A DNA stretch of 64,000 bases, taken from contig JAJTBE010000201.1 in NCBI GenBank assembly GCA_021287065.1, positions 7,728 to 71,727 on the forward strand, given 5' to 3'. A program made the translations under genes and the position numbers. Each line of letters opens with the position of its first letter. The stretch's first letter is position 1. The DNA is from Bacillota bacterium. GTDB lineage: Bacteria; Vulcanimicrobiota; JAJTBE01. Shown here piece after piece: positions 2,789-21,660 of the stretch. Under the pieces are notes generated by a model. That model saw only the letters and a list, made by a program, of their open reading frames with translations, was not told where the DNA came from and did no database searches.

Positions 2789-3499
2789 ATGAGTCAATTA
2801 TGGCACATGTACCGTCTGAGCCTGCTGGATCAGGAATCGGACAAAAAGAACGAAGAGCTGAGAAAGCTGAAGGACCCGGCGGAAATTGAAAAAGAGTGTA
2901 AAGATCTCGAAAAAGAGATTGCCAGACTCGATGAAGAATCGAAGAAACTTGTGCTTGCAACGAAAAAACTTGAGCTGGAAAGCGAAAGCATAAAGACTCA
3001 CTGGAAATCCATAGAAAAGAAGCTATACAGCGGAAAAACATCCAACACCAAAGAACTTTCAGGATGGCAGACAGAAGTTGCCACTCTGAAAAAGAAACAG
3101 AACAAGATCGAAGAAGAGATCATTGTTCTGATGGAACAGGCTGAAAGCATTGATGAATCCCTTAAAAATTCCCAAAAACAGCTTGAACTCAAAAAAGCTG
3201 AAGCAGAATCGGCATGGAAAAGTTATAAGGAAACAAAGGTTAATCTGGAAAAAGAAATCGCCGAGCTGAAAGATAAACGAACAAAATTAGTTCCCCCCAT
3301 AGATCAGGCTGATCTGAAAAAATACGAGATGCTCCGCAAGCTGAAAGACGACGGCGTAGCTATAGTAAAAATCGAAGAGAACGTATGCGGCGGCTGCTAT
3401 ATGAGCGTGCCGGATATGATGATTAAAAAGGTTCAGACCCTTCATCTTGTAACCTGCAACAACTGCTCAAGAATTTTATACTGGGAGGATGAAAAATAG
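2789..3499 (+). CDS. COG1579/DUF164 coiled-coil zinc-ribbon protein
   Basis: Long Lys/Glu coiled coil followed by CGGC-x19-CNNC. This family commonly follows nif3. GGAG RBS lies 8 nt upstream. Confidence 0.85.
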   Translation: MSQLWHMYRLSLLDQESDKKNEELRKLKDPAEIEKECKDLEKEIARLDEESKKLVLATKKLELESESIKTHWKSIEKKLYSGKTSNTKELSGWQTEVATLKKKQNKIEEEIIVLMEQAESIDESLKNSQKQLELKKAEAESAWKSYKETKVNLEKEIAELKDKRTKLVPPIDQADLKKYEMLRKLKDDGVAIVKIEENVCGGCYMSVPDMMIKKVQTLHLVTCNNCSRILYWEDEK

Positions 3500-6400
3500 C
3501 CCCTCCATGTCGGACATAAGAAAAATCCTGGAAGAATTCAGAAGCGAAGGTGAACTCGACTCAACGGGATACTTCACCCTTGACAGCAAAAAAGCAAGGG
3601 AAAAAATGAAGAAATACCAGTTGATAGATCCACACTACTATGTTCTTGAACTGGTTCAGGCAGCCTGCGCCGGAAATGCCACATTTATCAATGTTTATGT
3701 TGATTCTGACGACTGCATTGTTACATTTGACGGCGAACCTTACGACAGAGATGATTTTGAAAGCATGTATTCAAGCCTTTTTACATCCCAGCACGACATG
3801 AGGCTTGAAAGATTCCGGGAGCTTGCTATCGCCGTTAATTCAGCCATGGCCCTCAATCCTAAATTTATTGAAATCGTATCGGGAGATGGAAAAAAATCAG
3901 CTTCGCTTAACATAACTTCGCCGGTAAAAGAAGAAATCAAAGAGTATGAAAGTGATTTTGACGGAACACGTATTCACATAAAAGAGAGGCTTACCTGGGA
4001 CACCGCAAAGAGATTTTTCTCAGGCTTTATAGCAAAGCAGCTTCCCACCGAGGGGAAGGTTCTAAACTCCCAATGTATCTACTGCCACATTCCCATCACC
4101 CTCAACGGGGAAATCATAAATCCGCCGGAAAAGCAGAAGCTTCAGGGTGTAATTTTTGATAAGGACATTAAACTGGATCACAGCCGGGGTATGGTAGGGG
4201 TACCCGACTCCCCTTACAAACTTTCACATCTGCAGTTAATGAAATGGGGAGTGATAATAAACAGCCGTTCTATGAAACTGGGGTATCTGCCCATAATCGG
4301 CTATATCGAAGCCAATCGGCTCATCAAAAATGCTTCCCAGACAGACATTGTGGAAAACGAAGTCTATAAAAAACTTATGAAGGATTTGTCCGAGCTTGCT
4401 CCCCAGCTTCTTGACTCAGCCGTTGAAATATTCGGACGGCAGGAGACACAGACCGACGAAAAACTTCTCCTGGCTATGAAAGACATACTGAATCAGGCTC
4501 TGCGGTTTGAATTCAGAGTTGATAATTTTATTAAGGATCCTTCGCCCATTCTTTTAAAAATCGCCCCTCTCCCGATATTTACAACAGTATCAGGCAAACT
4601 GATAAGTTTAAACGAAATTGTGGAGCAGTATAAGAAAACCGGTTTTGTGCCATATTCGCAGCGATGCTTTATTTATGAGCATCCCGATAAGCTGAAGGTG
4701 CTTCTGATTCAGGATAATGATATGAAAAGCCTGATTGACGTGATGTTCAGAAACCGGAAGCGGGATGTTGAAGCTGATTTTGGCAGAAGTATGCTCAGAG
4801 ATCACAATATTGCTCTGTGGAGCACAAGGAGAACAGGGCAGTTAAACCTGCAGCCCGGCACATTTGCCCGGAAAACTTTCACCGACGGCAGCATCACCGG
4901 TTCACTGGGTCTTGCCCAGAGAAACCCCGATGATTTCTGTCGTATATCTTTCCATAAGGAAACAGGTATTATATGCGAAAAATATCTGGATCTGGGCGGA
5001 ATATACTTTGATGCGGTGGTCAACAACGACAGCCTGAGCCCGGTTTATACCTGGGATGATATTGAAACTGACTCCGAATTTGTAAAAACAATTCAGGCTC
5101 TGCTTATGCAGCTCAAACCGGTATATACGGAAATTGCCGCACAATATACAAGCCACCTTGAAAACGGAAAAACCGTAAGCGAATCAAGAAGAGTGCATTT
5201 GATTAGATATATGTCCCTTCTTCTTAAAAACACCGGAGAGGAACAACAGGAATCCTCAGCCACCGGCAAAAAGAAAAAGGCGGCTAAAAGGGTTTTTCAC
5301 TGCAAAACAGGACAGACTCTTTTCGAATCGAGAAAAACAACACCAAAGGACCCAAATGCCATAATAGAAATTCCCGATATGGGCCTTGCAATGCCCGAGG
5401 AATTTATTTATCTCAGGGTTTTCAATACCGTATCAGGTGGAATGGTCAGTCTGAATGATCTGCAGAAAGACCTTGAAAAATACTTCAAAGTTCATTTTTT
5501 AAGAAAAGATATGCCGGGAAAACAGATTGACGACAGACTGATTGTTGTAGTTAAAGACAAGGAAGAGGAGCTTCTCAAAAGATTCTTCGGCTGGTACAAG
5601 GTTGAAGATTACAGCAACGGTTTTACACAGGAACAGGAAGCGCAGAAAAATCTCAGCAGACCGGAGGAACAGCCTGAGATTAAAGAAGATACAATCATTA
5701 AGTTTCCCATAAATATCAGAGAAATCAGAGGCGAATTAGGCCTGCTGAATCGTGATGATATTGACTCCTATGCAGTAAAAATGGTGGAGGGAAAAATAAC
5801 CCAGACAGTAGCTGCTACGGTAAAAGTGTTGAAGATGAACCGGTACATTACCACAATCAAAATGGAATTCCCCATTCATGGAATAGCCGCAGCTCTCAAT
5901 TCTGACAGAATTTCGGTAAACAAATCCTGGGATCAGATCATTGAAAATGAACAGTATAAAGAACTGAGACAGGCAGTAATACAGGGTTTAAAAGAGATAG
6001 CAGCTTTTATAATAGATCAGAATCCTGATCTGAATGTTAGGGAAAACTTCAGACAGAAAAGATTCCTTTTTGAATTTGCAGGATACTGGCTTTGCCGTAT
6101 AGATTATCAGAAAAAGATAAACCCACAGACAAACCCGGATTCTACACTTTCAGACATAATCACAAATACAATCAATGGTTATCTGGAAAGCGTTTCCCTG
6201 AAAAACACCCCGGTAAAAATACCCACTCCTGATGATATACTCAAAGAACGCCTGATGCAGACAAAACTTTTCAGAACCACTGAAAATAGTGTTTATGCAA
6301 GTCTTGAGGATCTATGGGAAAACAAGAGGAAATTCGGCAAAATCGCCTATGTGGGCAAAGAGATTGCCGGCAGGCTTGAAAACGAACGGATGATACCTAT

Positions 6401-8423
6401 CCTCAGCACCATGGAGGAAAACGCAGTTCGTTCGGTTTTAGGCAAAGACTCACTCGAAAATGTGGAGTCTATTCTCAAGGCAAACCAGGCTTTCGAATAC
6501 ATCAAAAACTCAAAGCCCAGACAACAGGCTGTTATTTCCGCTGTTGATCCTCTGGTGAAGTTAAACATAGATGAAGAAGGCATTACAGGGGAAATCGGCA
6601 TTACAGGCACAGGCAGGCTGACTAATAAAGGCGTAGTAGTAATGCTTCTTAAAGAATCCAGAAGTATAAATTCAAGATCATTCGATTATCCTATCCATCT
6701 TGAAGCCTGCATAAACTATGACAAATTAAAGCCTATGTCCAACTGGTCCGATGTGGTGGAAGACGAAAATTACAAAAAAGTGGTGGAATGTCTTAAACGA
6801 CATTCATTCAAAGCTTTAACGACTCTTTTTGAAAAATACAACATTATGAGTATTGAAAACAAGGCAAAGGCGGAAATATACTTCCTTACTTACCTGATAC
6901 ATTCATTCGGAACATATTCGGATGTTGTGAGGAGTAAAAGTGATTCCTTTGTGATGAAGCTTGCATCACTCAGGATTCTTCCAGTTCTCGGAGGGAGAAA
7001 AATAAGTCTGGCGGAGCTTATCGAATACTATAAGGTAAATAATAAAATTCCTTATGTCAATTATGCGGCGGAGCATGATTCCCAGGGAATTGATGAGATT
7101 ATTCTTGTTTTGAACGGTGAAACCCACGGGCTTCTGAAAAAGATGTTCTACAACTTCCGGGAATGCACCCAGGACCTTCAGCTTCGCAAAATTGCAGAGA
7201 AAAATATGGAAAAACCTCCTGTTGAAAAGCTCAGCATTGACAGTGAATATATTTATAAAGTGCAAATTAATAAAGCGGGGATAACAGGCGAGCTTGGCAT
7301 TCCTGCTCAATATCTGTCATCGGAGAAGATACTGTTTACCCGGAAAATGATTCCGGTTGTGGAGAAAAACCTGTATTCCCAGTCCAGAATCTTCGGTATT
7401 CTTGAATCCCCGGAATTCAGGACCGACAAAGCTTTTACCGATGTTACGCTCTTCCAGTCGGAAAAAAGAACGATTCTGGAATATATATACAAACTTTACA
7501 GCGGTCTGGCAGACCTTTATCCCGGAATGGAAGAGGCAATAACCAGAGAAACTGCAAGGCAGTTCCTGCTTAGTTTTTATATTGAACAGAAGTTTCAGGT
7601 TCAGACAGAGTTCAGGATAATGGAATCAAAACTTGAGAAGAAAATCGGTTCGCTGCCCCTTCTGCCCATAAGCGACGGAAGGTATGCAGGGATTGATGTG
7701 GCGTTGAATTCTGCGGAAAGACTGGGTTATATCGGATACATCCATACGGGAGATAAGGTTTATTCTCCTGTGGATGAAATTGTTTTCAGATTTGACGATT
7801 TCGATTTTGACTACAGTTTCTGCAAAAAACTGGCAGGTTCGGATAAAGTCAGGTACCAGAAGGAATTGACAATTCCGCCGGTTCAAATTGAACCCTTATC
7901 TTCACATGAGGAAGGGTTAAAGGCGGAGCATGTGGAAACTGTTCGGGATTCAGCTCCGGCTCCCGAAGGGGAGTCCGTTTCCGTTTCAGATGAAACCGTA
8001 CGGGAAACCGCTGAATCACAGTCATTACGGGAACCGGAACTTACCCCGGATCAGAAACTGCTGTATGCACTCAGACGGGAATTCAGACTAATAAGGGAAA
8101 CAGGTGATTATAAACTGTCCGATGATATTTTACAGAATATGAACATCTGTAGTAAGGAAGGACAACCGCCTGTATTATTTAACGGAAAAACTTCAACACT
8201 TCTGATTAATACGGTCCATCCATTTATCGGGACATTAACCGGAAGACTGGAACAAACTCCTGAAGCCATATATTATCTGCTGTCAGTTATATACAGTACG
8301 ATAAACAGGGAGCTAAAGGAGATAGAGGACAGGGATGAGCTGGCTTTCCAGATGGTAATGCTGGATTATCTGCTCAAACCTGCTAAAATATCAAACAAAA
8401 AACCGGATGCTCTACCGGTTTGA
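3489..8423 (+). CDS. Giant (1644 aa) hypothetical cytoplasmic protein: degenerate GHKL-like N-terminus plus five about 270-aa tandem modules
   Basis: Uninterrupted ORF with no TM or signal peptide. N-terminal ELVQAACAGNATFINVYV resembles a GHKL N-box lacking the Asn. Five repeats carry G-[IL]-[TR]-G-[ES]-[LI]-G-[LI] and W-x-D-[IV]-[IV]-E-[ND]-E-x-Y-K motifs. Overlaps the upstream gene by 11 nt and prs by 4 nt. The exact start is uncertain (ATG 3489 or 3507). Confidence 0.8.
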   Translation: MKNSPSMSDIRKILEEFRSEGELDSTGYFTLDSKKAREKMKKYQLIDPHYYVLELVQAACAGNATFINVYVDSDDCIVTFDGEPYDRDDFESMYSSLFTSQHDMRLERFRELAIAVNSAMALNPKFIEIVSGDGKKSASLNITSPVKEEIKEYESDFDGTRIHIKERLTWDTAKRFFSGFIAKQLPTEGKVLNSQCIYCHIPITLNGEIINPPEKQKLQGVIFDKDIKLDHSRGMVGVPDSPYKLSHLQLMKWGVIINSRSMKLGYLPIIGYIEANRLIKNASQTDIVENEVYKKLMKDLSELAPQLLDSAVEIFGRQETQTDEKLLLAMKDILNQALRFEFRVDNFIKDPSPILLKIAPLPIFTTVSGKLISLNEIVEQYKKTGFVPYSQRCFIYEHPDKLKVLLIQDNDMKSLIDVMFRNRKRDVEADFGRSMLRDHNIALWSTRRTGQLNLQPGTFARKTFTDGSITGSLGLAQRNPDDFCRISFHKETGIICEKYLDLGGIYFDAVVNNDSLSPVYTWDDIETDSEFVKTIQALLMQLKPVYTEIAAQYTSHLENGKTVSESRRVHLIRYMSLLLKNTGEEQQESSATGKKKKAAKRVFHCKTGQTLFESRKTTPKDPNAIIEIPDMGLAMPEEFIYLRVFNTVSGGMVSLNDLQKDLEKYFKVHFLRKDMPGKQIDDRLIVVVKDKEEELLKRFFGWYKVEDYSNGFTQEQEAQKNLSRPEEQPEIKEDTIIKFPINIREIRGELGLLNRDDIDSYAVKMVEGKITQTVAATVKVLKMNRYITTIKMEFPIHGIAAALNSDRISVNKSWDQIIENEQYKELRQAVIQGLKEIAAFIIDQNPDLNVRENFRQKRFLFEFAGYWLCRIDYQKKINPQTNPDSTLSDIITNTINGYLESVSLKNTPVKIPTPDDILKERLMQTKLFRTTENSVYASLEDLWENKRKFGKIAYVGKEIAGRLENERMIPILSTMEENAVRSVLGKDSLENVESILKANQAFEYIKNSKPRQQAVISAVDPLVKLNIDEEGITGEIGITGTGRLTNKGVVVMLLKESRSINSRSFDYPIHLEACINYDKLKPMSNWSDVVEDENYKKVVECLKRHSFKALTTLFEKYNIMSIENKAKAEIYFLTYLIHSFGTYSDVVRSKSDSFVMKLASLRILPVLGGRKISLAELIEYYKVNNKIPYVNYAAEHDSQGIDEIILVLNGETHGLLKKMFYNFRECTQDLQLRKIAEKNMEKPPVEKLSIDSEYIYKVQINKAGITGELGIPAQYLSSEKILFTRKMIPVVEKNLYSQSRIFGILESPEFRTDKAFTDVTLFQSEKRTILEYIYKLYSGLADLYPGMEEAITRETARQFLLSFYIEQKFQVQTEFRIMESKLEKKIGSLPLLPISDGRYAGIDVALNSAERLGYIGYIHTGDKVYSPVDEIVFRFDDFDFDYSFCKKLAGSDKVRYQKELTIPPVQIEPLSSHEEGLKAEHVETVRDSAPAPEGESVSVSDETVRETAESQSLREPELTPDQKLLYALRREFRLIRETGDYKLSDDILQNMNICSKEGQPPVLFNGKTSTLLINTVHPFIGTLTGRLEQTPEAIYYLLSVIYSTINRELKEIEDRDELAFQMVMLDYLLKPAKISNKKPDALPV

Positions 8424-9475
8424 AAGCAGGGAAAATAATGGATTCATCATCCGATCTGATTCAGAACCACTGCAAGAAGGGAATATGGAAAGCAGCTCTT
8501 GAACTTGAAGAGTCCGAACGGATTCCACTAAGAGATGAAAAGATAAAGCTCTTTGCGGGCAATTCCCATCCTGATCTGGCGAGAGCCATTTCAGAATATC
8601 TGGAAGTTCCGCTTTCAAGAGCTACTGTATCCAAATTCACCAATGATGAGACCAGGGTTCAAATTGAGGAGTCGGTAAGAGGCTACGAAGTATTCGTCAT
8701 TCAGTCCATGTGCTATCCGGTAAACGACAGCATAATGGAACTTCTGATTATGGTTGACGCCCTTGCAAGAGCGTCAGCAAGTGTGGTTAATGTAGTGGCG
8801 CCTTACTTCGGATATGCAAAACAGGAAAAGAAGACCGCAGGCAGAGAACCAATCAGCGCCAAACTGGTTGCCAACCTGCTGACAGTGGCGGGAGCCAACA
8901 GAGTGATCACAATGGATCTCCACGCAGCCGCCATTCAGGGATTTTTCGACATCCCTCTGGACAACCTGTTCGCCCTTCCATTATTTGAATATTTTTATAA
9001 AGAGAAGGGAATAGTCGGCAGCGATGTGGTAGTAGTATCACCGGACGCCGGCGGTGTGGCAAGAGCCCGGCATTTTGCGGAAAGACTCAACGCCACAATG
9101 GCAATTATTTTCAAACGCCGCCCTGAGCCTGATAAAAACGAGATAATCGAAATAGTCGGCGATGTCAAGGGAAAACGGGCAATAATCATCGATGACATGA
9201 TCTCCACAGGAGGCACTCTTGTAAAAGGCGCTGAAATGATAAAAAGTATGGGAGCCACAGAAATATATGCGTGCGCCACCCATCCTATTTTAGCGGGAAA
9301 TGCCGTCCAGAGGATCATCGAATCACCCATAGATGAAGTTGCTATGACCGATACAATTCCCATTCCCGATTCGGCACTTCACACAAAATTCTGTAAAATT
9401 TCCGTAGCGGGTATGTTTGGAGAATCGATACGAAGGAATTTCTATAACTTCTCCATGAGTAAAATCTTCTTCTAA
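8420..9475 (+). CDS. prs: Ribose-phosphate pyrophosphokinase
   Basis: KLFAGNSHPDLA, DLHAAAIQGFFDIPLDNL and the PRPP loop IIDDMISTGGTL. TTG 8420 overlaps the previous stop, and ATG 8438 is an alternative start. Either start gives an N-terminal extension of about 40 aa over typical Prs. Confidence 0.9.
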   Translation: MKAGKIMDSSSDLIQNHCKKGIWKAALELEESERIPLRDEKIKLFAGNSHPDLARAISEYLEVPLSRATVSKFTNDETRVQIEESVRGYEVFVIQSMCYPVNDSIMELLIMVDALARASASVVNVVAPYFGYAKQEKKTAGREPISAKLVANLLTVAGANRVITMDLHAAAIQGFFDIPLDNLFALPLFEYFYKEKGIVGSDVVVVSPDAGGVARARHFAERLNATMAIIFKRRPEPDKNEIIEIVGDVKGKRAIIIDDMISTGGTLVKGAEMIKSMGATEIYACATHPILAGNAVQRIIESPIDEVAMTDTIPIPDSALHTKFCKISVAGMFGESIRRNFYNFSMSKIFF

Positions 9476-9489
9476 TATATAATATATTG

Positions 9490-9519
9490 TTGACAGATTG
9501 CCCGTAAATATGGTAAAAA
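9490..9519 (+). promoter_or_regulatory. Sigma-70-type promoter for rplY(ctc)-pth: -35 TTGACA, 18-bp spacer, extended -10 TGgTAAAAA
   Basis: TTGACA at 9490-9495 and TGG-TAAAAA at 9511-9519, about 45 nt upstream of the L25 start, which has an AAAGGAG RBS. Confidence 0.5.
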
Positions 9520-9564
9520 GAGAAAACGGTTTCATGTCATGTCAAGTTCGAAAGGAGAAAATCC

Positions 9565-10194
9565 ATGCATCAGGTTAATCTGAAGGCTAAAATGAGAGAT
9601 AACACCGGCAAAAACTTTTGCAAAAAAGTCAGACAGGCCGGTGGCGTTCCTGCTGTAATTTACGGCAACAAGATGGAAAATGTTCTCGTTTCAGTCGATA
9701 CCTCAGAGTTCGTAAAAGCCATTACTTCAAGCGCAGGCACAAGAATCATCGTAAATCTTAATGTAGAATCAGGCAAAGAGACAAAAGAATACACAACAAT
9801 GATTTCAGAGATTCAGAAAGATGTATTCCAGAAAAAATACTTCCATATCGATTTTCATAAAGTTTCACTGGATGAGAAGACCCACTCAGATGTCCCCGTA
9901 ACATTACGCGGAGAATCAAAAGGCGTCAAAAACGGTGGAATGCTTGATCAGCTGATATGGCGTATACAGGTAGAAGCTCTTCCCCTCGATCTGCCCGAGA
10001 AAATTGAAATTGATATCACCAACCTCGAAGAAGGCCAGTCAATTAGCGTAAAAGACATAGTCCTTCCCGAAGGCGTCCATTCACTGGTAGATGCAAGCGA
10101 AATGATCGCCATCGTACATGCTCCCAAAGTAGCACGGGAAGAAACACCCGCTGAACCAGTAGCTGCAGCCGGCAAAGGCAAAGGCAAAAAGTAG
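9565..10194 (+). CDS. rplY: 50S ribosomal protein L25 / general stress protein Ctc
   Basis: L25 N-domain (GGVPAVIYG) plus a Ctc-type C-terminal extension ending in a GKGKGKK tail. Conserved prs-ctc-pth gene order. Confidence 0.9.
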   Translation: MHQVNLKAKMRDNTGKNFCKKVRQAGGVPAVIYGNKMENVLVSVDTSEFVKAITSSAGTRIIVNLNVESGKETKEYTTMISEIQKDVFQKKYFHIDFHKVSLDEKTHSDVPVTLRGESKGVKNGGMLDQLIWRIQVEALPLDLPEKIEIDITNLEEGQSISVKDIVLPEGVHSLVDASEMIAIVHAPKVAREETPAEPVAAAGKGKGKK

Positions 10195-10211
10195 GAGCTT
10201 AGTGTCGTCAG

Positions 10212-10784
10212 GTGAAGAGAATTCTTATAGCCGGATTAGGTAATCCCGGGCCGGAGTATGCGCTCACCAGGCATAACATCGGGTTTATCATTGTTGACCG
10301 CCTTGCGGAACAACTCAGATTATCCGGCTGGACGAAAGAAAAAAAGTCACATTCGATCCGGGGTGAATATCGAGATAACGAAGTTATCATCATAAAACCC
10401 CGGACGTATATGAACTTGTCCGGCGAGGCAGTAATTGCATATTTGTCACATTACAGAATCCCCCCTGGGGATTTTCTTGCTGTTGTTGACGATTTGGCTC
10501 TTCCATTCGGAAAACTTCGTTTCAGAGCAAGAGGAAGTGACGGCGGACATAACGGACTTTCTTCCATAATCGAAAAAATAGGCTCCCAGGAATTTCCGAG
10601 ACTCAGAGTCGGAATTGATCCCACGCCCGAAGGGACAGACACCGCAGATTATGTTTTATCCAGCTTTACTCCGGAGCAGATTGAAGAACTGCAGAATATA
10701 ACGGAAAAAGCGGTGAAGGGCATCTTATCATTTATCGAATCCGGAATAGAAGATACTATGAACTGCTTTAATAAAAGTTCATAA
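10212..10784 (+). CDS. pth: Peptidyl-tRNA hydrolase
   Basis: GLGNPGPEYALTRHNIGF and DDLALPFGKLRFRARGSDGGHNGL signatures. GTG start. Confidence 0.93.
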   Translation: MKRILIAGLGNPGPEYALTRHNIGFIIVDRLAEQLRLSGWTKEKKSHSIRGEYRDNEVIIIKPRTYMNLSGEAVIAYLSHYRIPPGDFLAVVDDLALPFGKLRFRARGSDGGHNGLSSIIEKIGSQEFPRLRVGIDPTPEGTDTADYVLSSFTPEQIEELQNITEKAVKGILSFIESGIEDTMNCFNKSS

Positions 10785-13765: not shown

Positions 13766-15985
13766 GTGAAAAACACAGTAAAATTAATTGCTCTTCTTCT
13801 CGTTGTGTTTCTTGCCGCCGGTTTTACTGCCGGATGCGGAAACAGCAGCGATGACGGAGGAGGGGACAATTCCACAGGTTCCGTTGAAGGCTATGTAATG
13901 GACGAGAATAACGAACCCATAGCCGGAGCCGAATGCACAATAACAACAACTGACTCCAGAGGTACGTACGCAACCATTACTGATACCAATGGGTATTATA
14001 GTATCCTCAATGTTCCCGTGGGAACATGGCCGATGTCTGTCGTTTGTTCTGGTTATTCCCCACTTAATTTAAACGTGCAGATAAATCAGGGACAAACAAC
14101 CCAGAATCCCACTTCCACAATGCCTCCTGCAGGCGCCGGCTCTGTCAGCGGCACTGTTTACTCCGAGCTTATCGGCGGCACTGTTATTTCAGGAGCAACA
14201 ATTACAGCAGGTTCAGTTATAGTTACCAGCGCCGCAAACGGCACTTACACAGCAAACGGTGTGGCAGCAGGCAGCCAGACAATAACCGCTACAGCCACAG
14301 GTTATACTCAATACAGCTCTACAGTTACAGTCGCTGCCAGTTCAACAGTTACAAAAGACATAGCAATGACTCCCAGTTCAACTTCATCCCCTACGCCTTC
14401 ACCGGGATACGGAAATGCAACAGGCAAAGTAATCGATGCCAACGGCTCACCTCTTGCTGATGTTACAGTTTCCCTCCAGAAAGGCGACAGATCAACCACT
14501 AATTCAAGCGGTGTTTATATTTTCGAAAACCTCACCCCCGGTGTCAGAACCCTTGCCTTTGCAAAAACAGGTTATGACGACAGAACACAGGATGTTACAG
14601 TTGCAGCTGATACAACAGTAACAGCTCCCACAGTAACACTCACGGAAACCCCCGTAACCGGTGTTACCCTCTGGGTATCAAAAAGAATCAATCTCCCTGA
14701 AGTCGGCGATTCGGGAGAAGCAGATGTTTCATATGACGGCACCAAAGTAGTTTTCACCAGCGTCGGCAATGTAATCGCCGACTGGGGCGGCGGCGTTCCG
14801 GATAATGCCTCCAGAGATGCAGGCAACACTCAGATTTATGTTTGGAACAGAGCAACAGGAACCATAACAAGAGTTTCCAACAACAATCTTGTCCCCGGAG
14901 CAACAGGCGGCTGCAACGGTGATTCAAGATATCCCGCAATCAGCGGAGACGGTAATTTTGTTGTATTCAGATCTCTTGCAAAAAATATTCTCGCCAACGG
15001 TCTTTCAACAACAAACAACCGCGATATCTTTATGGTCAGACTGTCAGACAACAAAACCATAAGAATAAGCAATGACGGAGCTAACGCCAATGCGGGCGGA
15101 AATGCGGCATCGGATATGCCAGATATTAACGGCGACGGCACAAAAGTTGTTTTCTCATCCTTAGCCACAAATATCGGAAACATAAACCACACCGCAACAT
15201 GGAGCCATATTTATTATGTAACGGTTTCAAACATGGTTCCCGGCATCAGAAGAATGATTGACTGTTCAATGGCTTCAGCAGAAGGCGCCGATCAGGTTGT
15301 TGATGATCCCGAATCAGCCAATCCGTCCATATCATACGATGGCAGATACACTGCTTATCAGACAAAAGCAACCAACCTTACCGACGGTGAACAACCCGGT
15401 TCAAACCGTTCAAGAAACGGAGTTCCAGTAAAGATATTCAGAAATGATATCAACACAAGCCCGATTGTGGGTTGGAACCTACTTATATCAAAACATAACG
15501 GTACCGAAGCCAATGCAAACTGCCAGCGTCCTTCCATAAACGGAGACGGCAGCAGAATCGCTTTTGAATCCACATCAACCAACCTCGGCTATTCATCTGC
15601 CACAACTTCAAATATCTACCTCTGGAGCATAAACAGCATAGCGCTGAAGTTCTTAACAATGCCTCTGGAAGGTGCAGTTGGCGAGAATACCTATGCCCAG
15701 CTGGACAAATCAGGCAGATATGTAGCTTTCCGTTCGACAGCAATCGGCCTTGTTTCTGATGTGACCAACGCAACAGCCAGAATCTATGTTAAAGACGCAG
15801 ATTCGGGCAAAAACGAATATACCCTTATGAGAGGCGCTTCAGGTCAGGTGCCTACAAATGACTGCGACGAACCTGCAATGAGCGGCGACGGAAACTATGT
15901 GGCATTCCACACAGCTTCCAAAAATCTCACAAACGACAAATTCACAGCAGGTATTGTTGATACATTTATCCGCAAATGGAAATAA
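13766..15985 (+). CDS. Secreted (possible lipo-)protein: three carboxypeptidase-regulatory-like Ig domains plus 7-bladed TolB/PD40-like beta-propeller
   Basis: GTG start after AAGAAGGAG and a signal peptide ending FTAGC. Three copies of G-x-V-x-D-x-x-G-x-P-[IL]-A-[GD]... modules. Seven [SI]-x-DG-x-x-[VI]-[VA]-F-x-[ST] blades. Confidence 0.75.
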   Translation: MKNTVKLIALLLVVFLAAGFTAGCGNSSDDGGGDNSTGSVEGYVMDENNEPIAGAECTITTTDSRGTYATITDTNGYYSILNVPVGTWPMSVVCSGYSPLNLNVQINQGQTTQNPTSTMPPAGAGSVSGTVYSELIGGTVISGATITAGSVIVTSAANGTYTANGVAAGSQTITATATGYTQYSSTVTVAASSTVTKDIAMTPSSTSSPTPSPGYGNATGKVIDANGSPLADVTVSLQKGDRSTTNSSGVYIFENLTPGVRTLAFAKTGYDDRTQDVTVAADTTVTAPTVTLTETPVTGVTLWVSKRINLPEVGDSGEADVSYDGTKVVFTSVGNVIADWGGGVPDNASRDAGNTQIYVWNRATGTITRVSNNNLVPGATGGCNGDSRYPAISGDGNFVVFRSLAKNILANGLSTTNNRDIFMVRLSDNKTIRISNDGANANAGGNAASDMPDINGDGTKVVFSSLATNIGNINHTATWSHIYYVTVSNMVPGIRRMIDCSMASAEGADQVVDDPESANPSISYDGRYTAYQTKATNLTDGEQPGSNRSRNGVPVKIFRNDINTSPIVGWNLLISKHNGTEANANCQRPSINGDGSRIAFESTSTNLGYSSATTSNIYLWSINSIALKFLTMPLEGAVGENTYAQLDKSGRYVAFRSTAIGLVSDVTNATARIYVKDADSGKNEYTLMRGASGQVPTNDCDEPAMSGDGNYVAFHTASKNLTNDKFTAGIVDTFIRKWK

Positions 15986-18290: not shown

Positions 18291-18447
18291 AAGCAATCCT
18301 ATCGGTATAGCTTATATTTCGGCAAAATGGTATAACATCGGATCTCATGGCTGATTTAACGGGATTACTATATTATCATATTTTAACAAAAGGAATAATG
18401 ACTTGTTGTGGAATGAATAATCATGGTTTTTGAGGGGAGGAGAAAAT

Positions 18448-21400
18448 TTGTCGGAGCATCCGGAATCAAAGCCTGTTGAACAGGCTGAAACTGAGAATCG
18501 GACTGAATCAGCAGAGGGAAATACCTTTTGGGGTAAATTCACCAGCAAAGTCTGGTTCCCGATATTAACTTTTCTGTCAGGAATAATAATAAGGGCTTTT
18601 CTCGTTTTATCCACCGACACCGGAGGGGTTGAGGTGTTCAGAGCGCAGGCGGCGCAGGCTTTTCTTGCCAATGCCGCCAACATGAAATTTGCCCATATTT
18701 TTGCATATTACAAAATAAATTCCTGCACACCCCTGTTGTCATACATTCTGTATGGTGTATTCGGAGCTTTTAAGTTTTTTCAGGAAAAGGCCGCCTTGCT
18801 TGGTTTTACAAGAGAAAAGCTTGAAGCCCTCGGAATCAGACAGGATATCTGGGACAGAATTCTCGGACTGTTTCTGAAATCTCCGATGATACTTGCAGAT
18901 CTTGGTATTGCAATTCTTATTTATATCATTATAAGAAGAAAATTTGACAGCATAAAGCTGGGAACTATTGCCGGCGCACTTTATCTCCTTATGCCGCCTG
19001 TGGTTTTCGCATTTTTCCGCAGACCTGAAACCCTCTCAATAACTCTGTTTCTCATTCTGCTTGCTGTGGTTATAATCAACGGCAAAAACAGATTTGCTGC
19101 CATTTTTGCAGCTATACCGCTTTCACTTGCGCTTCTCAATGAGATTAACCCTCTCATTATGGCAGGAATTATGGGATGGCTGATTTTATCGCAGATAAAA
19201 CGGAAAAGGTTTGTAACCGCCGCATTATCACCGCTTGCAGTTGTGCTTCTGTTTATCCTTATTTCAGCTCCGTTCCACAGCTTCACATTCCAGCCCCCGG
19301 ATGCTCCTCCGGACGACGGGAGAATCCCTCTTGACCAGCTTCATCAGATGAATCTGAAAAGCTCGTCAAACTTAACTATGACCGATGTGATTTACTGGGA
19401 TACATTTATTGAAAGTCTGGCTAAGCCTGAGACTCCGCAGATGATAAAACTGCAGAGCTATCTATCCCCGGGAACGGTGCAGTTTCTGCTATCACATAAG
19501 CCTGAGACACCGCCGGATGTGGCAGGGGTAAAGCAGTTTGTAGCTGAAATTAATCAGGTTCTCTCCCGGAAAGATTTCTACTCACCGGATTTATTTGATG
19601 AATCGTATTTTACCGACGAAGGCAAAGAGCTTCTTGCAAAAGGTATAAACAACCTCAGCGACAATCAGACAAGAAGGCTCAACAAGATAATTCTTGAATC
19701 CCTTTATCCCATGGTGCTGGTGAAAAGCCCGATTCCTCTGCCTGAGGACCAGATGAAGCTTTTCCCGTTCAGGCTGATTTACGAAAATACCTACAGATAT
19801 ACCCAATACAACTCAAACAGTGCCTTTAATATATGGAGCCTTTATTCGATAAAGCTTCCCGACTCCGCCCCTTCGTTTATCGGAGTGCCAAAATTCACAG
19901 CAGGGCTTATTCTGACCATTGCAGTGATGATTCTCCTGTTTGCTCTTTATATAAGAAGCAGAAAAACAGATATAGAGGCAGACTGTCTGTATTTTACACT
20001 GTTTTTCCTTACTCAGTTTATGCTTCCCACAAGATGCTTCGATTATGCCGTAATATCTATTTTTCCCTTTCTTGCGGTTCTGTTCTTCTCTGATTTCAGA
20101 GCAAGACTCCTCACATACGGATTTGGCGTTACCGCATGGGTCAATCTCTATCTGATTGAGCGGTTTGATGTTTCTCCGGAGGCATTCACAACTGTTCCCG
20201 CATTTATGAAACTGTTTTCGCTGATTAACATCCTGATGTTTGCCGGAGCTGTAGCCTGGTATTGGGTGAGATCAGGTGAGGAAAGTCCCGAAGAGGCGGG
20301 ATTGAAGCTGAAAAACCGGATTTTAACATTTTCACCAGCGCTGCGTAAAGTATCGGACTGGTTTCTGGTTCCTGCGAACCAGCAGTTTGTTATGGTATTA
20401 TTCGTCGCTTTCATAATCAGGATATGGAGGCTTGGAATCCCTGACACCACAAATTTCGATGAAAAATACTACACACCCATGGCGAGGGATTATTTCTATG
20501 GAATTAAGGATCCCGTCGAGGGTGCTTCCCATCCTCCCCTTTCCACATACATTATCGGTATCGGAATAGGGCTTCTGGGCGATAATGTAATCGGCTGGCG
20601 TATAATGAGCCTGATTTTCAGCATGCTTATGCTGACTGTATTATACTACTTCGCAAGGGAAGTATTTAAAAACCACGCTCCCGCCCTTATTGCCACAAGC
20701 CTTCTGGCTTTCGACTTTATGCATTTTGTGCATTCCCGTCTGGGTATGCTTGATATCTATTCGTCATTTTTCAACCTTTGCAGTTATTATCTGCTCTACC
20801 TGTTTATTACCAAAGGCAATAACCGCTATCTATGGGGACTGGGGGCAACCCTTGCCCTCGGTGCAGCTTGTAAATGGACGGCGGCGTTTACTATCCTCGG
20901 TGTTGGCACAATTCTTGTTGCGGGAAAAATCGCAGGCATGATATTCAAAGAAAAATTCACATACGGGGAAAACCTCCGAAAGGTGAACATTCTGAAACTC
21001 ATCGCCATTCTTGCGATAATTCCATTTGTTGTTCAGATACTGGTATTTCTGCCTCTCCTTGGAAATGTAAAAGCTGTGGGCAACAAGCTTCAGGAGCTTA
21101 CAAAATACCACGAAAACCTTGTGGGAGAAGATGAAATTGCATCTCCCTGGTGGTCATGGATATTTGTCATCAATCCAATCACATACACAAGAGTAACAGT
21201 AGGCGCTCCGAAATCCCAGCAGGTTTCAGATTTTGAGATCATAAGACTCAAAGAACAGAATGCAGTGGAGCAGACTGCGGTAACAGGAATGGGAAATCCC
21301 ATTGCATGGTGGTTCTCAATACCTGCAATCATCGCCTGTTTCATCATTGCATACCGAAGAAAGGATCTTGGCGGTGTTTATGCGGCAATGCCCTTTATTT

Positions 21401-21660
21401 TCCAGTATTTTCCGTGGGCGTTTATCAAGCGTATAACATATATTTTCTATATGATTGATATTGTGCCTTATATGTGCCTTGCTTTAGCTTATGTTCTTTA
21501 CGCTATTTATGCAAAGGGCAAAATCGGCAGAGTTCTGGTTTATTCATATATGGGACTTATTGTCGCCGCTTTTGTGTTTTTCTATCCGGTTCTCACGGCA
21601 CTGTCGGTAAGTCCGGCAATTTACAGGCTTTATAAGATTTTCAACTTCTGGAAATTCTGA
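18448..21660 (+). CDS. Polytopic membrane glycosyltransferase: N-terminal GT-C-like module fused to a GT39/PMT_2 module
   Basis: More than 20 predicted TM segments. The C-terminal half has the PMT-type loop motif NFDEKYYTPMARDYF and a PMT_4TMC-like end. The N-terminal half (about 640 aa) is a second polytopic module with a soluble loop of about 180 aa. TTG 18448 follows GAGGGGAGGAG. Confidence 0.75.
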   Translation: MSEHPESKPVEQAETENRTESAEGNTFWGKFTSKVWFPILTFLSGIIIRAFLVLSTDTGGVEVFRAQAAQAFLANAANMKFAHIFAYYKINSCTPLLSYILYGVFGAFKFFQEKAALLGFTREKLEALGIRQDIWDRILGLFLKSPMILADLGIAILIYIIIRRKFDSIKLGTIAGALYLLMPPVVFAFFRRPETLSITLFLILLAVVIINGKNRFAAIFAAIPLSLALLNEINPLIMAGIMGWLILSQIKRKRFVTAALSPLAVVLLFILISAPFHSFTFQPPDAPPDDGRIPLDQLHQMNLKSSSNLTMTDVIYWDTFIESLAKPETPQMIKLQSYLSPGTVQFLLSHKPETPPDVAGVKQFVAEINQVLSRKDFYSPDLFDESYFTDEGKELLAKGINNLSDNQTRRLNKIILESLYPMVLVKSPIPLPEDQMKLFPFRLIYENTYRYTQYNSNSAFNIWSLYSIKLPDSAPSFIGVPKFTAGLILTIAVMILLFALYIRSRKTDIEADCLYFTLFFLTQFMLPTRCFDYAVISIFPFLAVLFFSDFRARLLTYGFGVTAWVNLYLIERFDVSPEAFTTVPAFMKLFSLINILMFAGAVAWYWVRSGEESPEEAGLKLKNRILTFSPALRKVSDWFLVPANQQFVMVLFVAFIIRIWRLGIPDTTNFDEKYYTPMARDYFYGIKDPVEGASHPPLSTYIIGIGIGLLGDNVIGWRIMSLIFSMLMLTVLYYFAREVFKNHAPALIATSLLAFDFMHFVHSRLGMLDIYSSFFNLCSYYLLYLFITKGNNRYLWGLGATLALGAACKWTAAFTILGVGTILVAGKIAGMIFKEKFTYGENLRKVNILKLIAILAIIPFVVQILVFLPLLGNVKAVGNKLQELTKYHENLVGEDEIASPWWSWIFVINPITYTRVTVGAPKSQQVSDFEIIRLKEQNAVEQTAVTGMGNPIAWWFSIPAIIACFIIAYRRKDLGGVYAAMPFIFQYFPWAFIKRITYIFYMIDIVPYMCLALAYVLYAIYAKGKIGRVLVYSYMGLIVAAFVFFYPVLTALSVSPAIYRLYKIFNFWKF

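What the first reader, a model, noticed from the sequence alone, without database searches (positions are those of the whole stretch)
3489..8423. Giant 1644-aa cytoplasmic protein: apparently dead GHKL-like head plus five about 270-aa tandem modules, inside a housekeeping operon
No signal peptide or TM segment. Residues about 50-85 (YVLELVQAACAGNATFINVYVDSDDCIVTFDGEPY) align by eye with the Bergerat N-box region of MutL/Hsp90/sacsin-type GHKL ATPases (ELVxNxxDAGAT-I-V ... DNG-G). The Mg-coordinating Asn and the following Asp are replaced, suggesting a non-catalytic scaffold. Five modules follow, each with three elements. (i) G-[IL]-[TR]-G-[ES]-[LI]-G-[LI]: SRGMVGV, ITGSLGL, IRGELGL, ITGEIGI, ITGELGI. 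(ii) N-x-D-x-L-x(4,5)-W-x-D-[IV]-[IV]-E-[ND]-E-x-Y-K: for example NSDRISVNKSWDQIIENEQYKEL and NYDKLKPMSNWSDVVEDENYKKV. (iii) SG-x-x-[IV]-SL-x-[ED]-[LI] ... K-[IF]-x-Y: TVSGKLISLNEIVEQYKKTGFVPY and LGGRKISLAELIEYYKVNNKIPYV. The gene overlaps the COG1579 Zn-ribbon gene by 11 nt and prs by 4 nt. It therefore sits between the usually conserved nif3/Zn-ribbon and prs-ctc-pth blocks and is probably co-translated with them. I do not recognise the module.
Basis: partly seen in the sequence, partly recalled or inferred. Interest (0 to 1): 0.7.

Follow-up and report, generated by a model that had tools for sequence, protein, structure and literature searches.

The report
Giant dead Hsp90 with five middle domains
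This 1,640-residue bacterial protein is a previously undescribed relative of the Hsp90 chaperone that has lost its ATP-handling residues and carries five copies of Hsp90's client-binding middle domain. In related bacteria it is encoded next to a small Hsp90-like protein that keeps every ATPase residue, which suggests a chaperone-like machine split between two proteins.

Summary
The ORF at 3489..8423 (+) is real. Homologues start at Met7 (nt 3507).

**Repeats.** Five tandem modules of about 235-285 aa are confirmed by profile-profile comparison (E 1e-11 to 1e-31; reversed-sequence controls give E 0.03 or worse).

**Fold.** The modules are Hsp90 middle domains. An AlphaFold2 model of head plus module 1 (pLDDT 86.6) matches only Hsp90-family structures over N-terminal plus middle domains (TRAP1, HtpG, Hsc82, GRP94; E to 7e-16). 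The model of residues 452-1644 also matches only Hsp90, including middle plus C-terminal domains. The architecture is N*-M-M-M-M-M-C.

**Dead head.** The Mg-binding Asn is never present in 175 family members (Ala in 147). The N-box Asp and two lid glycines are gone, and the catalytic Arg is Gln284.

**Partner.** In several relatives a ~545-aa paralogue (N-M-C; Pfam HATPase_c_3/SACS) overlaps the giant gene's start. It keeps every catalytic residue in 120/120 sequences. In two close relatives it lies elsewhere in the genome. It is absent from this window.

**Context and spread.** Only the downstream prs-L25-pth linkage is conserved. The claimed 11-nt and 4-nt overlaps depend on start-codon choice. 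The family has more than 4,000 clusters, no Pfam or NCBIfam model, and no paper found.

The parts
3489..8423 (+). Giant gene, longest ORF 1644 aa. The probable true start is ATG 3507 (Met7), giving 1638 aa.
   Evidence: ORF list and translation. All homologues and the database copy start at Met7. Sequence at the start site.
3507..3629 (+). Conserved N-terminal extension (residues 7-47, motif DSxGxFTLDxxKAREKMxxYQLxDP). It precedes the N-box helix, has no counterpart in the partner protein, and is partly predicted disordered.
   Evidence: Invariant columns D24 S25 G27 F29 L31 D32 A36 R37 K39 M40 Q44 L45. pLDDT below 50 for residues 20-31. The partner alignment starts only at residue 43.
3507..4130 (+). 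Head (residues 7-214): an Hsp90-type GHKL (Bergerat-fold) N-terminal domain with a degenerate ATP site.
   Evidence: AF2 model pLDDT 86.6. All top 50 Foldseek PDB hits are Hsp90 family, E to 7e-16. hhalign of head versus canonical partner GHKL, E 1.3e-13.
3639..3743 (+). Degenerate N-box to G1-box region (residues 51-85). Glu54 is kept. The Asn position is Ala58, the Asp position is Ala61, and DxGxG is reduced to D81-G82-E-P.
   Evidence: Profile alignment to partner 'RELIQNSLDAG...DDYGEGM'. Family census of 175 sequences: Asn never present, Ala in 147.
4131..4841 (+). Module M1 (residues 215-451): Hsp90 middle domain. The catalytic-loop motif is KNASQTDIVEN, with Gln284 in place of Hsp90 Arg380.
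   Evidence: HMM alignment to yeast Hsp82 middle domain 1hk7. Foldseek N+M match. Alignment to partner 'TLTRD'.
4842..5669 (+). Module M2 (residues 452-727): Hsp90 middle-domain repeat.
   Evidence: hhalign versus M1 E 1.1e-16, M3 2.7e-26, M4 5.3e-26. AF2 model 2.
5670..6524 (+). Module M3 (residues 728-1012): Hsp90 middle-domain repeat, with a lineage-specific insertion of about 35 aa.
   Evidence: hhalign versus M4 E 1.7e-31. Insertion visible at alignment columns about 950-985.
6525..7226 (+). Module M4 (residues 1013-1246): Hsp90 middle-domain repeat.
   Evidence: hhalign versus M1 E 2.3e-21, M3 E 1.7e-31.
7227..7928 (+). Module M5 (residues 1247-1480): the most divergent middle-domain repeat.
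   Evidence: hhalign versus M1-M4, E 2.4e-11 to 4e-14.
7929..8030 (+). Acidic, Ser-rich linker of variable length (residues about 1481-1514), predicted disordered.
   Evidence: pLDDT below 50 for model residues 1011-1065, which are protein residues 1462-1516. Length is variable in the alignment.
8031..8420 (+). C-terminal domain (residues 1515-1644): resembles the Hsp90 C-terminal (dimerisation) domain. It carries the 'LLINtvHPfi' motif followed by two conserved helices.
   Evidence: Secondary-structure order is helix, three strands, three helices. Foldseek aligns about 450 columns with full-length or M+C Hsp90 chains but only about 260 with N+M-only chains. hhalign to partner C-terminus E 1.2e-7, to Hsp82/HtpG E 0.018. 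HMMER aligns it to 'LEINPDHSIIETL'.
2789..3499 (+). Upstream neighbour: CT398/CdsZ-like coiled-coil Zn-ribbon gene. Its linkage to the giant gene is not conserved.
   Evidence: Pfam CT398_CC and Zn_ribbon_9. Absent upstream of the giant gene in L001, L005 and L006.
8438..10784 (+). Downstream block prs (probable start 8438), ctc/L25 (9565-10194) and pth (10212-10784). This linkage is conserved in the close clade.
   Evidence: Pfam. The same order follows the giant gene in L001, L005, L006 and L007.

Best explanation
**What it is (shown).** The gene encodes a very divergent paralogue of the Hsp90 chaperone with the architecture N*-M-M-M-M-M-C. N* is one Hsp90-type GHKL domain whose ATP site is dismantled. 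M is the Hsp90 middle domain, present five times in tandem. C is an Hsp90-like C-terminal domain.

**How it most likely works (inferred).**
- It cannot bind Mg-ATP in the canonical way or hydrolyse it.
- It probably serves as the non-catalytic scaffold subunit of a two-protein Hsp90-like machine.
- The ATPase subunit would be a ~545-aa 'mini-Hsp90' of the sacsin/HATPase_c_3 type (N-M-C). This protein is a paralogue of the giant's head, first module and C-terminal domain, and it keeps all catalytic residues.
- That partner gene overlaps the giant gene's start in several lineages. In the clade of this window it appears to have moved elsewhere in the genome.
- The giant protein would associate with itself or with the partner through the shared C-terminal domain, through N-domain pairing, or both. 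Its conserved N-terminal extension, predicted disordered, could act as the GHKL 'strap' in N-domain pairing.
- The array of middle domains would offer many binding surfaces for clients or cofactors, while the partner supplies ATP-driven conformational work.

Its tight, conserved position just upstream of prs-ctc-pth suggests constitutive, housekeeping-type expression rather than a mobile or defence context.
For: **Fold.**
- AF2 model of residues 7-451: pLDDT 86.6, pTM 0.80.
- All top 50 Foldseek PDB hits for it are Hsp90 family (TRAP1 6d14_A E 7.1e-16, HtpG 9a6t_B, Hsc82, GRP94), with about 490 aligned columns spanning N+M.
- AF2 model of residues 452-1644 has domain-level pLDDT of about 80-90. 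All its top 50 hits are Hsp90. About 450 columns align with M+C chains such as 6xlb_A, against about 260 with N+M constructs.

**Sequence.**
- A family profile aligns M1 with the Hsp82 middle domain across the '[15 protein letters not shown]' motif, and aligns the C-terminus with 'LEINPDHSII'.

**Repeats.**
- hhalign between modules gives E 1e-11 to 1e-31. Reversed controls give E 0.03 or worse.

**Dead site.**
- Alignment to the canonical paralogue, E 3.7e-20 over 358 columns, pairs Ala58 with Asn, Ala61 with Asp, R110/A113/A115 with GxxGxG, and Gln284 with Arg.
- Census of 175 family members: Asn 0/175, Arg 9/175.

**Partner.**
- It lies immediately upstream and overlaps the giant gene in L002, L003, L006/L007, L008 and L010.
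- Pfam hits are HATPase_c_3, SACS and HATPase_c.
- E, N, D, DxGxG, GxxGxG and Arg are all conserved in 120/120 sequences.
- Its C-terminal domain is homologous to that of the giant, E 1.2e-7.
- In the two close-relative genomes without adjacency it is present elsewhere in the same genome.

**Context.**
- Giant-prs-L25-pth is conserved in five loci.
- The giant has no PADLOC hit.
Against: - No experiment and no complex prediction supports a physical giant-partner interaction.
- The partner is not in this 64-kb window, so its presence in this genome is only inferred from relatives.
- Some giants (L009, L004) and some partners (L013, L014) have no adjacent counterpart.
- A C-terminal heterodimer would put the two N domains at very different distances from the dimer interface, so the geometry of any joint clamp is unclear.
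- Glu54, Asp81 and Gly82 are retained, so binding of some ligand in the pocket cannot be excluded.
- Sequence-only links to Hsp90 are weak (E 0.02-0.06).
- Inter-module geometry in the second model is uncertain (pTM 0.41).
- Chaperone function is an analogy with Hsp90, not a tested property.
Confidence: 0.55

Rival explanations
1. The giant protein is an autonomous, ATP-independent holdase or scaffold. It would homodimerise through its C-terminal domain and bind clients or other proteins on ten middle domains, with no need for the small ATPase. The gene adjacency seen in some lineages would then only reflect their origin by duplication.
For: In this window and in L001, L005, L009 and L004 the giant gene has no adjacent partner. 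The dead site is ancient and family-wide, which fits a stable non-enzymatic role. Partners also occur alone.
Against: Overlapping partner-giant gene pairs recur in five distant lineages. Both tested genomes without adjacency still encode the partner. The C-terminal domain is shared by the two proteins.
Confidence: 0.25
2. The protein is a component of a conflict, defence or signalling system built on sacsin-type GHKL proteins, analogous to Tiamat TmtA or MORC-like systems, and not a proteostasis factor.
For: The partner's N-terminal ~100 aa gives weak matches to PADLOC TmtA models, E 1e-10 to 1e-6. Ser/Thr kinase genes lie near several loci: L008, L010, L011, L013, L014.
Against: The giant has no PADLOC hit, and the TmtA matches cover only the generic GHKL core. 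The locus is chromosomal, syntenic with prs-L25-pth across relatives, and has the same G+C content as its surroundings. No nuclease, HEPN or other effector domain was found. Kinase genes are abundant in these phyla, so their proximity may be chance.
Confidence: 0.08
3. The head is not dead. It binds a nucleotide or another ligand in a non-canonical way through the retained Glu54, Asp81 and Gly82, and acts as a slow switch.
For: Glu54 is retained in 107/175 sequences, Asp81 in 151/175 and Gly82 in 153/175. The pocket-forming fold is confidently predicted.
Against: The Mg-coordinating Asn is absent in 175/175 sequences. Two of the three lid glycines are gone. The lid is reduced to a five-residue connection between two helices (model residues 93-97). 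The middle-domain Arg is present in only 9/175.
Confidence: 0.07
4. One reading: a GHKL-like head followed by five copies of a novel, unclassifiable module, co-translated with the nif3/Zn-ribbon and prs operons.
For: No Pfam, NCBIfam or PDB-sequence hit for the single sequence.
Against: Structure and profile comparisons identify the module as the Hsp90 middle domain. The overlaps depend on start-codon choice. The upstream linkage is not conserved.
Confidence: 0.03

Closest known systems
Hsp90 family (bacterial HtpG, mitochondrial TRAP1, cytosolic Hsp90/Hsc82, GRP94)
   Same: The N-terminal Bergerat-fold domain is followed by a middle domain of the same fold, and the order is N, M, C. The middle-domain sequence landmarks are shared: the catalytic-loop motif and the '...SLxDYV...IYYI' segment. 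The C-terminal domain has the 'NPxHP' strand-helix motif and terminal helices.
   Different: There are five middle domains instead of one. The N-box Asn and Asp, the lid glycines and the catalytic Arg are lost, and the lid is very short. A conserved N-terminal extension of about 40 aa is added. The disordered linker lies before the C domain, not between N and M. Identity to Hsp90 structures is 11-16%, and the protein is not detected by Pfam HSP90 or NCBIfam HtpG models.
The ~545-aa HATPase_c_3/SACS 'mini-Hsp90' partner family (labelled 'ATP-binding protein' by NCBI and 'molecular chaperone HtpG' by JGI)
   Same: It is a direct paralogue. Head+M1 aligns with it at E 3.7e-20 over 358 columns, and the C-terminal domains align at E 1.2e-7. 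It is often encoded immediately upstream of the giant gene.
   Different: The partner has one middle domain and all catalytic residues in 120/120 sequences. It lacks the N-terminal extension. It is recognised by Pfam, whereas the giant is not.
Sacsin (human ARSACS protein)
   Same: It is a giant protein built from repeated Hsp90-like units. Each sacsin repeat region contains an Hsp90-N-like and an Hsp90-M-like domain with a shortened lid (PMC9880540). The partner protein matches the Pfam SACS and NCBIfam sacsin N-terminal models.
   Different: Sacsin repeats the whole N+M unit three times and keeps putative catalytic residues, including the Arg (PMC9880540). The giant repeats only M, five times, after a single dead N. 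It lacks sacsin's UBL, DnaJ and HEPN domains. The giant itself does not match the SACS model.
MutL / MORC / GyrB-type GHKL ATPases
   Same: They share the Bergerat fold.
   Different: None of the top 50 structural matches is MutL, MORC or GyrB. The domain after the head is an Hsp90 middle domain. No DNA-related domains were found.

Membership tests
Hsp90 family (HtpG/TRAP1/Hsp90) | Bergerat-fold N domain directly followed by an Hsp90-type middle domain (structural similarity) | tested here: met
   Foldseek with the AF2 model of residues 7-451: all top 50 hits are Hsp90 family, E to 7.1e-16, about 490 aligned columns, TM (query-normalised) 0.55-0.60.
Hsp90 family (HtpG/TRAP1/Hsp90) | Recognition by curated sequence models (Pfam HSP90 PF00183 / HATPase_c; NCBIfam HtpG) | tested here: not met
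   No Pfam or NCBIfam family at E up to 0.01. phmmer against PDB sequences found nothing. A family profile reaches Hsp82 only at E 0.022.
Hsp90 family (HtpG/TRAP1/Hsp90) | ATP-binding motifs: N-box Glu...Asn...Asp, G1 DxGxG, G2 GxxGxG lid | tested here: not met
   Glu54 is kept. The Asn position is Ala58 and the Asp position is Ala61. G1 is reduced to D81-G82-E-P. G2 has become R110/A113/A115. Asn is absent in 175/175 family members.
Hsp90 family (HtpG/TRAP1/Hsp90) | Catalytic Arg of the middle-domain loop (yeast Arg380) | tested here: not met
   Gln284 in M1. By reading the sequences, Trp at the aligned position in M2-M4 (W522, W814, W1086) and no Arg in any module. Arg is present in only 9/175 family members at the M1 position.
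Hsp90 family (HtpG/TRAP1/Hsp90) | One middle domain; overall N-M-C architecture of about 600-700 aa | tested here: not met
   Five tandem middle domains and 1638 aa.
Hsp90 family (HtpG/TRAP1/Hsp90) | C-terminal dimerisation domain | tested here: inconclusive
   Fold-level support comes from about 450 aligned columns with M+C chains versus about 260 with N+M chains, and from the helix, three-strand, three-helix order. The sequence link is weak (E 0.018 to Hsp82/HtpG). Dimerisation itself was not testable.
GHKL superfamily | Bergerat alpha/beta sandwich fold | tested here: met
   hhalign of head versus canonical GHKL partner, E 1.3e-13.
GHKL superfamily | Mg-ATP binding and hydrolysis | not testable with these tools
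   Loss is predicted from the motifs only. It needs biochemistry.
Sacsin-type repeats (Pfam SACS / HATPase_c_3) | Match to the SACS or HATPase_c_3 models; the N+M unit repeated as a whole | tested here: not met
   The giant has no Pfam hit, and only M is repeated. The partner does match: HATPase_c_3 2.8e-11, SACS 2.9e-09.
Tiamat (TmtA) or other known defence systems | Match to PADLOC models | tested here: not met
   The giant has 0 PADLOC families. The partner gives only weak matches of its N-terminal GHKL core to TmtA.

The most novel reading that the evidence does not exclude
Many bacteria (Vulcanimicrobiota/Eremiobacterota, Myxococcota and others) may possess a second, undescribed Hsp90-type machine in which the two jobs of Hsp90 are split between paralogues. 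A compact active ATPase (N-M-C, ~545 aa) would provide the motor. A giant, catalytically dead subunit with five or more middle domains would provide the client or scaffold platform. This would be a bacterial counterpart of the eukaryotic 'super-chaperone' sacsin, and possibly an evolutionary relative of it.
Probability: 0.4. Interest if true: 0.85.

Novelty: new variant of a known kind. Interest (0 to 1): 0.72.

Why it matters
Hsp90 is among the most studied chaperones, and in bacteria the described form is HtpG-type (N-M-C, one middle domain).

- **Size of the gap.** This is a large family: 4,223 clusters at 50% identity with E up to 1e-3, and 1,032 with E up to 1e-30. No curated model detects it, and its members are labelled 'hypothetical protein'.
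- **A natural experiment.** The ATPase is switched off and the client-binding middle domain is multiplied, often alongside an intact mini-Hsp90 paralogue. This bears on two open questions: what the middle domain does by itself, and how asymmetric (one active, one inactive) GHKL pairs work.
- **Link to sacsin.** It provides a tractable bacterial analogue for sacsin, whose mechanism is unresolved.
- **Annotation.** It would allow thousands of giant hypothetical proteins to be annotated.

Tried and rejected
- **Self-BLASTP** of the protein found no internal repeat. The repeats are too old for pairwise search, and profiles were needed.
- **Single-sequence searches** against Pfam, NCBIfam and PDB sequences found nothing.
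It also mis-registered the N-box helix, pairing 'KAREKMKKYQLIDP' with 'SDALDKIRYKSLSDP'. I rejected that register in favour of the significant alignment to the canonical partner, which fits the universal GHKL layout of helix, then GAT, then strand.
- **Defence-system reading:** PADLOC gave nothing for the giant.
- **Heat-shock operators:** CIRCE had no match in the window, and HAIR had one match at chance level far away at 41330.
- **Promoter and terminator scans** were at chance level and uninformative.
- **Search for the partner, the HycI-like gene and other partner-locus genes in the window:** absent.
- **Counting modules across 175 family members** with the five module HMMs undercounts in distant members. 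I use it only to say that longer proteins (2,250-3,050 aa) show up to 6-7 detectable modules.
- **Literature searches** found no description of this architecture in the held library. Subscription journals are not covered.
- **Not used:** the third fold-search job and the third homologue search.

Full report
**1. The observation**

The + strand ORF 3489..8423 encodes 1644 aa. Its G+C content (0.40-0.45) matches its surroundings. There is no hydrophobic segment of transmembrane strength: the highest 19-residue Kyte-Doolittle mean is 1.49. The N-terminus is charged.

Self-BLASTP detects no repeat. I therefore collected homologues (36 proteins, 11 of them full-length at 34-42% identity) and aligned them (A1). 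I cut the alignment at the motif-(i) positions and compared the pieces as profiles.
- All ten module pairs are related, with hhalign E 5.6e-11 to 1.7e-31 over 166-256 columns.
- The head (residues 7-214) and the C-terminal 130 residues are unrelated to the modules.
- Twenty controls against reversed modules give E 0.03 or worse.

The five-module claim is therefore statistically sound. The module boundaries are 215-451, 452-727, 728-1012, 1013-1246 and 1247-1480. The same head, modules and C-terminus architecture is found in the distant relatives too.

**2. Start codons and operon claims**

All full-length homologues, and the database copy of this very protein (P0001, 1638 aa), begin at Met7. 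That places the start at nt 3507, 7 nt after the Zn-ribbon stop at 3499. A GGGAGG lies directly against the ATG at 3489 (spacing 0) and 18 nt from 3507, so neither start has an ideal ribosome-binding site.

For prs, the TTG at 8420 is only the longest-ORF start. The in-frame ATG at 8438 has AGGGA 7 nt upstream and gives 345 aa, like its orthologues at 338-346 aa. The 11-nt and 4-nt overlaps are therefore doubtful. The genes are nevertheless tightly packed on one strand. Promoter and terminator scans are at chance level.

**3. What the protein is**

The single sequence hits nothing in Pfam, NCBIfam or PDB sequences. A profile of 32 family members gives weak but ordered hits only to Hsp90.
- Module M1 aligns with the yeast Hsp82 middle domain (1hk7, E 0.022). 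The alignment runs through the '[22 protein letters not shown]' catalytic-loop motif and on to the 'LRYNST...SLTDYV...IYYIT' segment.
- The C-terminus aligns with 'LEINPDHSIIETL...LLYET'.

Structure prediction settles the matter.
- *Model 1 (residues 7-451).* It has pLDDT 86.6 and pTM 0.80. All its 50 best PDB matches are Hsp90-family chains (TRAP1, HtpG, Hsc82, GRP94, HSP90-beta). E-values reach 7.1e-16, about 490 columns align, and the TM score is 0.55-0.60, covering N plus middle domain.
- *Model 2 (residues 452-1644).* It has mean pLDDT 79, with most domain blocks at 80-90, and pTM 0.41, so the inter-module geometry is uncertain. It again matches only Hsp90. About 430-500 columns align with full-length chains, and 452 columns with the 406-residue chain 6xlb_A, against only about 260-300 with N+M-only constructs (4ivg, 5hph_B, 4z1i_C). 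The extra ~190 columns imply that M5 plus the C-terminal domain superpose on Hsp90 M plus C.
- The C-terminal secondary-structure order (helix, three strands, three helices) fits the Hsp90 C-terminal domain.

- Element (i) is the 'RAILFIP' strand.
- Element (ii) is the catalytic loop.
- Element (iii) is the 'LRYxST...SL..YV...IYYIT' segment.

**4. The head is a dead ATPase, and this is family-wide**

The decisive alignment came from a paralogue found in the neighbourhoods of relatives (section 5). The head+M1 profile aligns with that family at hhalign probability 99.3% and E 3.7e-20 over 358 columns. The pairings are as follows.

| Canonical motif in the partner | Giant protein |
|---|---|
| RELIQ**N**SL**D**AG | LELVQ**A58**AC**A61**G |
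| DDYGEGM (G1 box) | FD-GEPY |
| **G**KF**G**I**G**F (G2 lid) | **R110**-E-L-**A113**-I-**A115** |
| TLT**R**D (Hsp90 Arg380 position) | NAS**Q284**T |

The lid is reduced to a five-residue connection between two helices (model residues 93-97).

Counts across 175 family sequences:

| Position | Residues found |
|---|---|
| N-box Asn | Ala 147, Asn 0 |
| N-box Asp | Leu 97, Ala 49, no Asp |
| Middle-domain Arg | Gln 115, His 23, Leu 14, Arg 9 |
| Glu54 (retained) | 107/175 |
| Asp81 (retained) | 151/175 |
| Gly82 (retained) | 153/175 |

Loss of canonical Mg-ATP chemistry is therefore an ancient, fixed trait. This is inferred from motifs and has not been measured. By reading the sequences, the Arg-equivalent position in M2-M4 is a conserved Trp (W522, W814, W1086).

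**5. A catalytically intact partner**

In relatives L006/L007 (P0009), L002, L003, L008 (P0029) and L010 (P0013), a 535-547-aa gene lies immediately upstream and overlaps the giant gene's start.
- It matches Pfam HATPase_c_3, SACS and HATPase_c.
- It matches the NCBIfam sacsin-N domain, with sub-threshold HtpG and HSP90 hits.
- In 120/120 family members it has E, N, D, DxGxG, GxxGxG and the catalytic Arg.
- Its C-terminus carries 'LxLNxxHPxV' plus the following helices. It is homologous to the giant's C-terminal domain (hhalign probability 94%, E 1.2e-7, 98 columns).

The partner is thus a mini-Hsp90 (N-M-C), and the giant is its dead paralogue with the middle domain multiplied.

The partner is not in this window, nor next to the giant gene in L001 and L005. 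Both of those genomes nevertheless encode it elsewhere.
- On the 7.6-Mb contig of ERZ21831104, the giant is at 4.05 Mb and partner P0186 at 6.96 Mb.
- In GCA_021107945.1, the giant is on JAIORV010000187 and partner P0185 on JAIORV010000164.

Adjacency is not universal. L009 and L004 have giants without neighbours, and L013 and L014 have partners without giants.

**6. Context and distribution**

Giant-prs-L25-pth is conserved in the window, L001, L005, L006 and L007. The upstream side varies.
- In the window it is NIF3, a phosphoribosyltransferase and the Zn-ribbon gene.
- In L001 it is AlaDH and saccharopine dehydrogenase on the other strand.
- In L005 it is peptidase M29.
- In L006 it is the partner.

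prs is 68-72% identical among these loci, while the giant is only 35-42% identical. The giant therefore evolves comparatively fast.

The named relatives are MAGs of Vulcanimicrobiota/Eremiobacterota, Myxococcota (Myxococcales, Polyangia, Nannocystaceae) and a few others.

A head+M1 profile finds 4,223 cluster representatives (50% identity) at E up to 1e-3, and 1,032 at E up to 1e-30. Most are 1,450-1,700 aa, and some are 2,250-3,050 aa. The count at the looser threshold may include some partner-family proteins.

There is no PADLOC hit for the giant, and no CIRCE or HAIR operator nearby.

**7. Mechanism**

*Shown:* the fold identity, the five repeats, the missing catalytic residues, the existence of the intact paralogue, its frequent translationally coupled position, and the shared C-terminal domain.

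*Inferred:* the giant is the non-catalytic scaffold of a split Hsp90-like machine whose motor is the partner.

The strongly conserved N-terminal extension (residues 7-47, invariant D24 S25 G27 F29 L31 D32 A36 R37 K39 M40 Q44 L45) is absent from the partner. It is partly predicted disordered (pLDDT below 50 for residues 20-31). This behaviour is expected of a GHKL N-terminal strap that becomes ordered only in a dimer. That is a suggestion from general GHKL knowledge, not a result.

Whether pairing occurs through N domains, C domains or both is open. A C-terminal heterodimer would leave the two N domains far apart. A chaperone or holdase role is by analogy with Hsp90 and sacsin (PMC9880540).

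The rivals are an autonomous holdase, a defence or signalling component, and non-canonical ligand binding. They are listed with their evidence in the rival-explanations section.

**8. Comparison with known families, and novelty**

The protein works like, and descends from, the Hsp90 family. It fails most membership criteria: curated models, ATP motifs, the catalytic Arg and the single middle domain.

Sacsin is the nearest architectural analogue. It is a giant protein of repeated Hsp90-like units with a short lid. It differs in repeating N+M units that keep their catalytic residues.

Four full-text searches found no description of an Hsp90 relative with multiplied middle domains, or of this gene pair. 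Subscription journals are not covered by the library.

I classify the finding as a new variant of a known kind.

**9. Verdict**

- Confidence that this is an Hsp90-fold N*-5xM-C pseudo-ATPase is about 0.9.
- Confidence in the full best explanation, including the partner-dependent scaffold role, is 0.55.
- Interest is 0.72.

Noticed in passing
L011:9662-10141, L012:8342-8815, L014:8662-9135: In the three genomes where the partner (mini-Hsp90) gene is not next to a giant gene, it is immediately followed by a ~157-aa HycI-family (PF01750, hydrogenase-maturation-protease-like) gene. In L011 and L014 the two genes overlap by 4 nt. This may be an alternative functional pairing of the ATPase with a small protease-like protein.
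   Followed up: partly
window 3507-3629 (residues 7-47): The most conserved stretch of the whole protein (DSxGxFTLDxxKAREKMxxYQLxDP) lies N-terminal to the GHKL core. It has no counterpart in the partner and is partly predicted disordered (pLDDT below 50 for residues 20-31). Its role is unexplained. It may be a strap or interface peptide.
   Followed up: partly
L005:15880-20923: Directly downstream of pth on the 7.6-Mb contig there are at least three tandem copies of a unit consisting of a 50-aa ORF plus a 442-aa group II intron-type reverse transcriptase (RVT_1 + GIIM), spaced about 2.2 kb apart.
   Followed up: no
L006:3052-3585 and L011:6281-6829 (minus strand): A ~180-aa phosphoribosyltransferase-domain gene, 54% identical between the two loci, lies a few kb upstream of the partner gene both where partner and giant are adjacent (L006) and where the partner is alone (L011). 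This hints that the partner locus is the ancestral site. The window's PRTase at 2202-2774 is unrelated to it.
   Followed up: partly
window 13766-15985: A 739-aa ORF has a partial match (E 1.6e-25, three stretches) to the Kustd1514 anammox S-layer glycoprotein family, far below the family cut-off. It is probably a surface protein sharing a repeated domain.
   Followed up: no
window 18430-21660: A 1076-aa protein has a PMT-type (dolichyl-phosphate-mannose protein mannosyltransferase-like) glycosyltransferase region only in its C-terminal ~420 residues. The N-terminal ~650 residues have no Pfam match.
   Followed up: no
window 28931-30997 (minus strand): A Ser/Thr protein kinase has an N-terminal zinc ribbon and C-terminal ankyrin repeats. 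Ser/Thr kinase genes also lie near the giant or partner loci in L008, L010, L011, L013 and L014, which may be chance in kinase-rich phyla.
   Followed up: no
window 1-64000: No tRNA or tmRNA gene, and no Rfam family at gathering threshold, in the whole 64-kb window.
   Followed up: yes
P0051, P0060, P0061, P0083, P0139, P0166: Some family members are 2,750-3,050 aa, and a group is about 2,250 aa, with up to 6-7 detectable middle-domain modules. The number of modules therefore varies within the family.
   Followed up: partly
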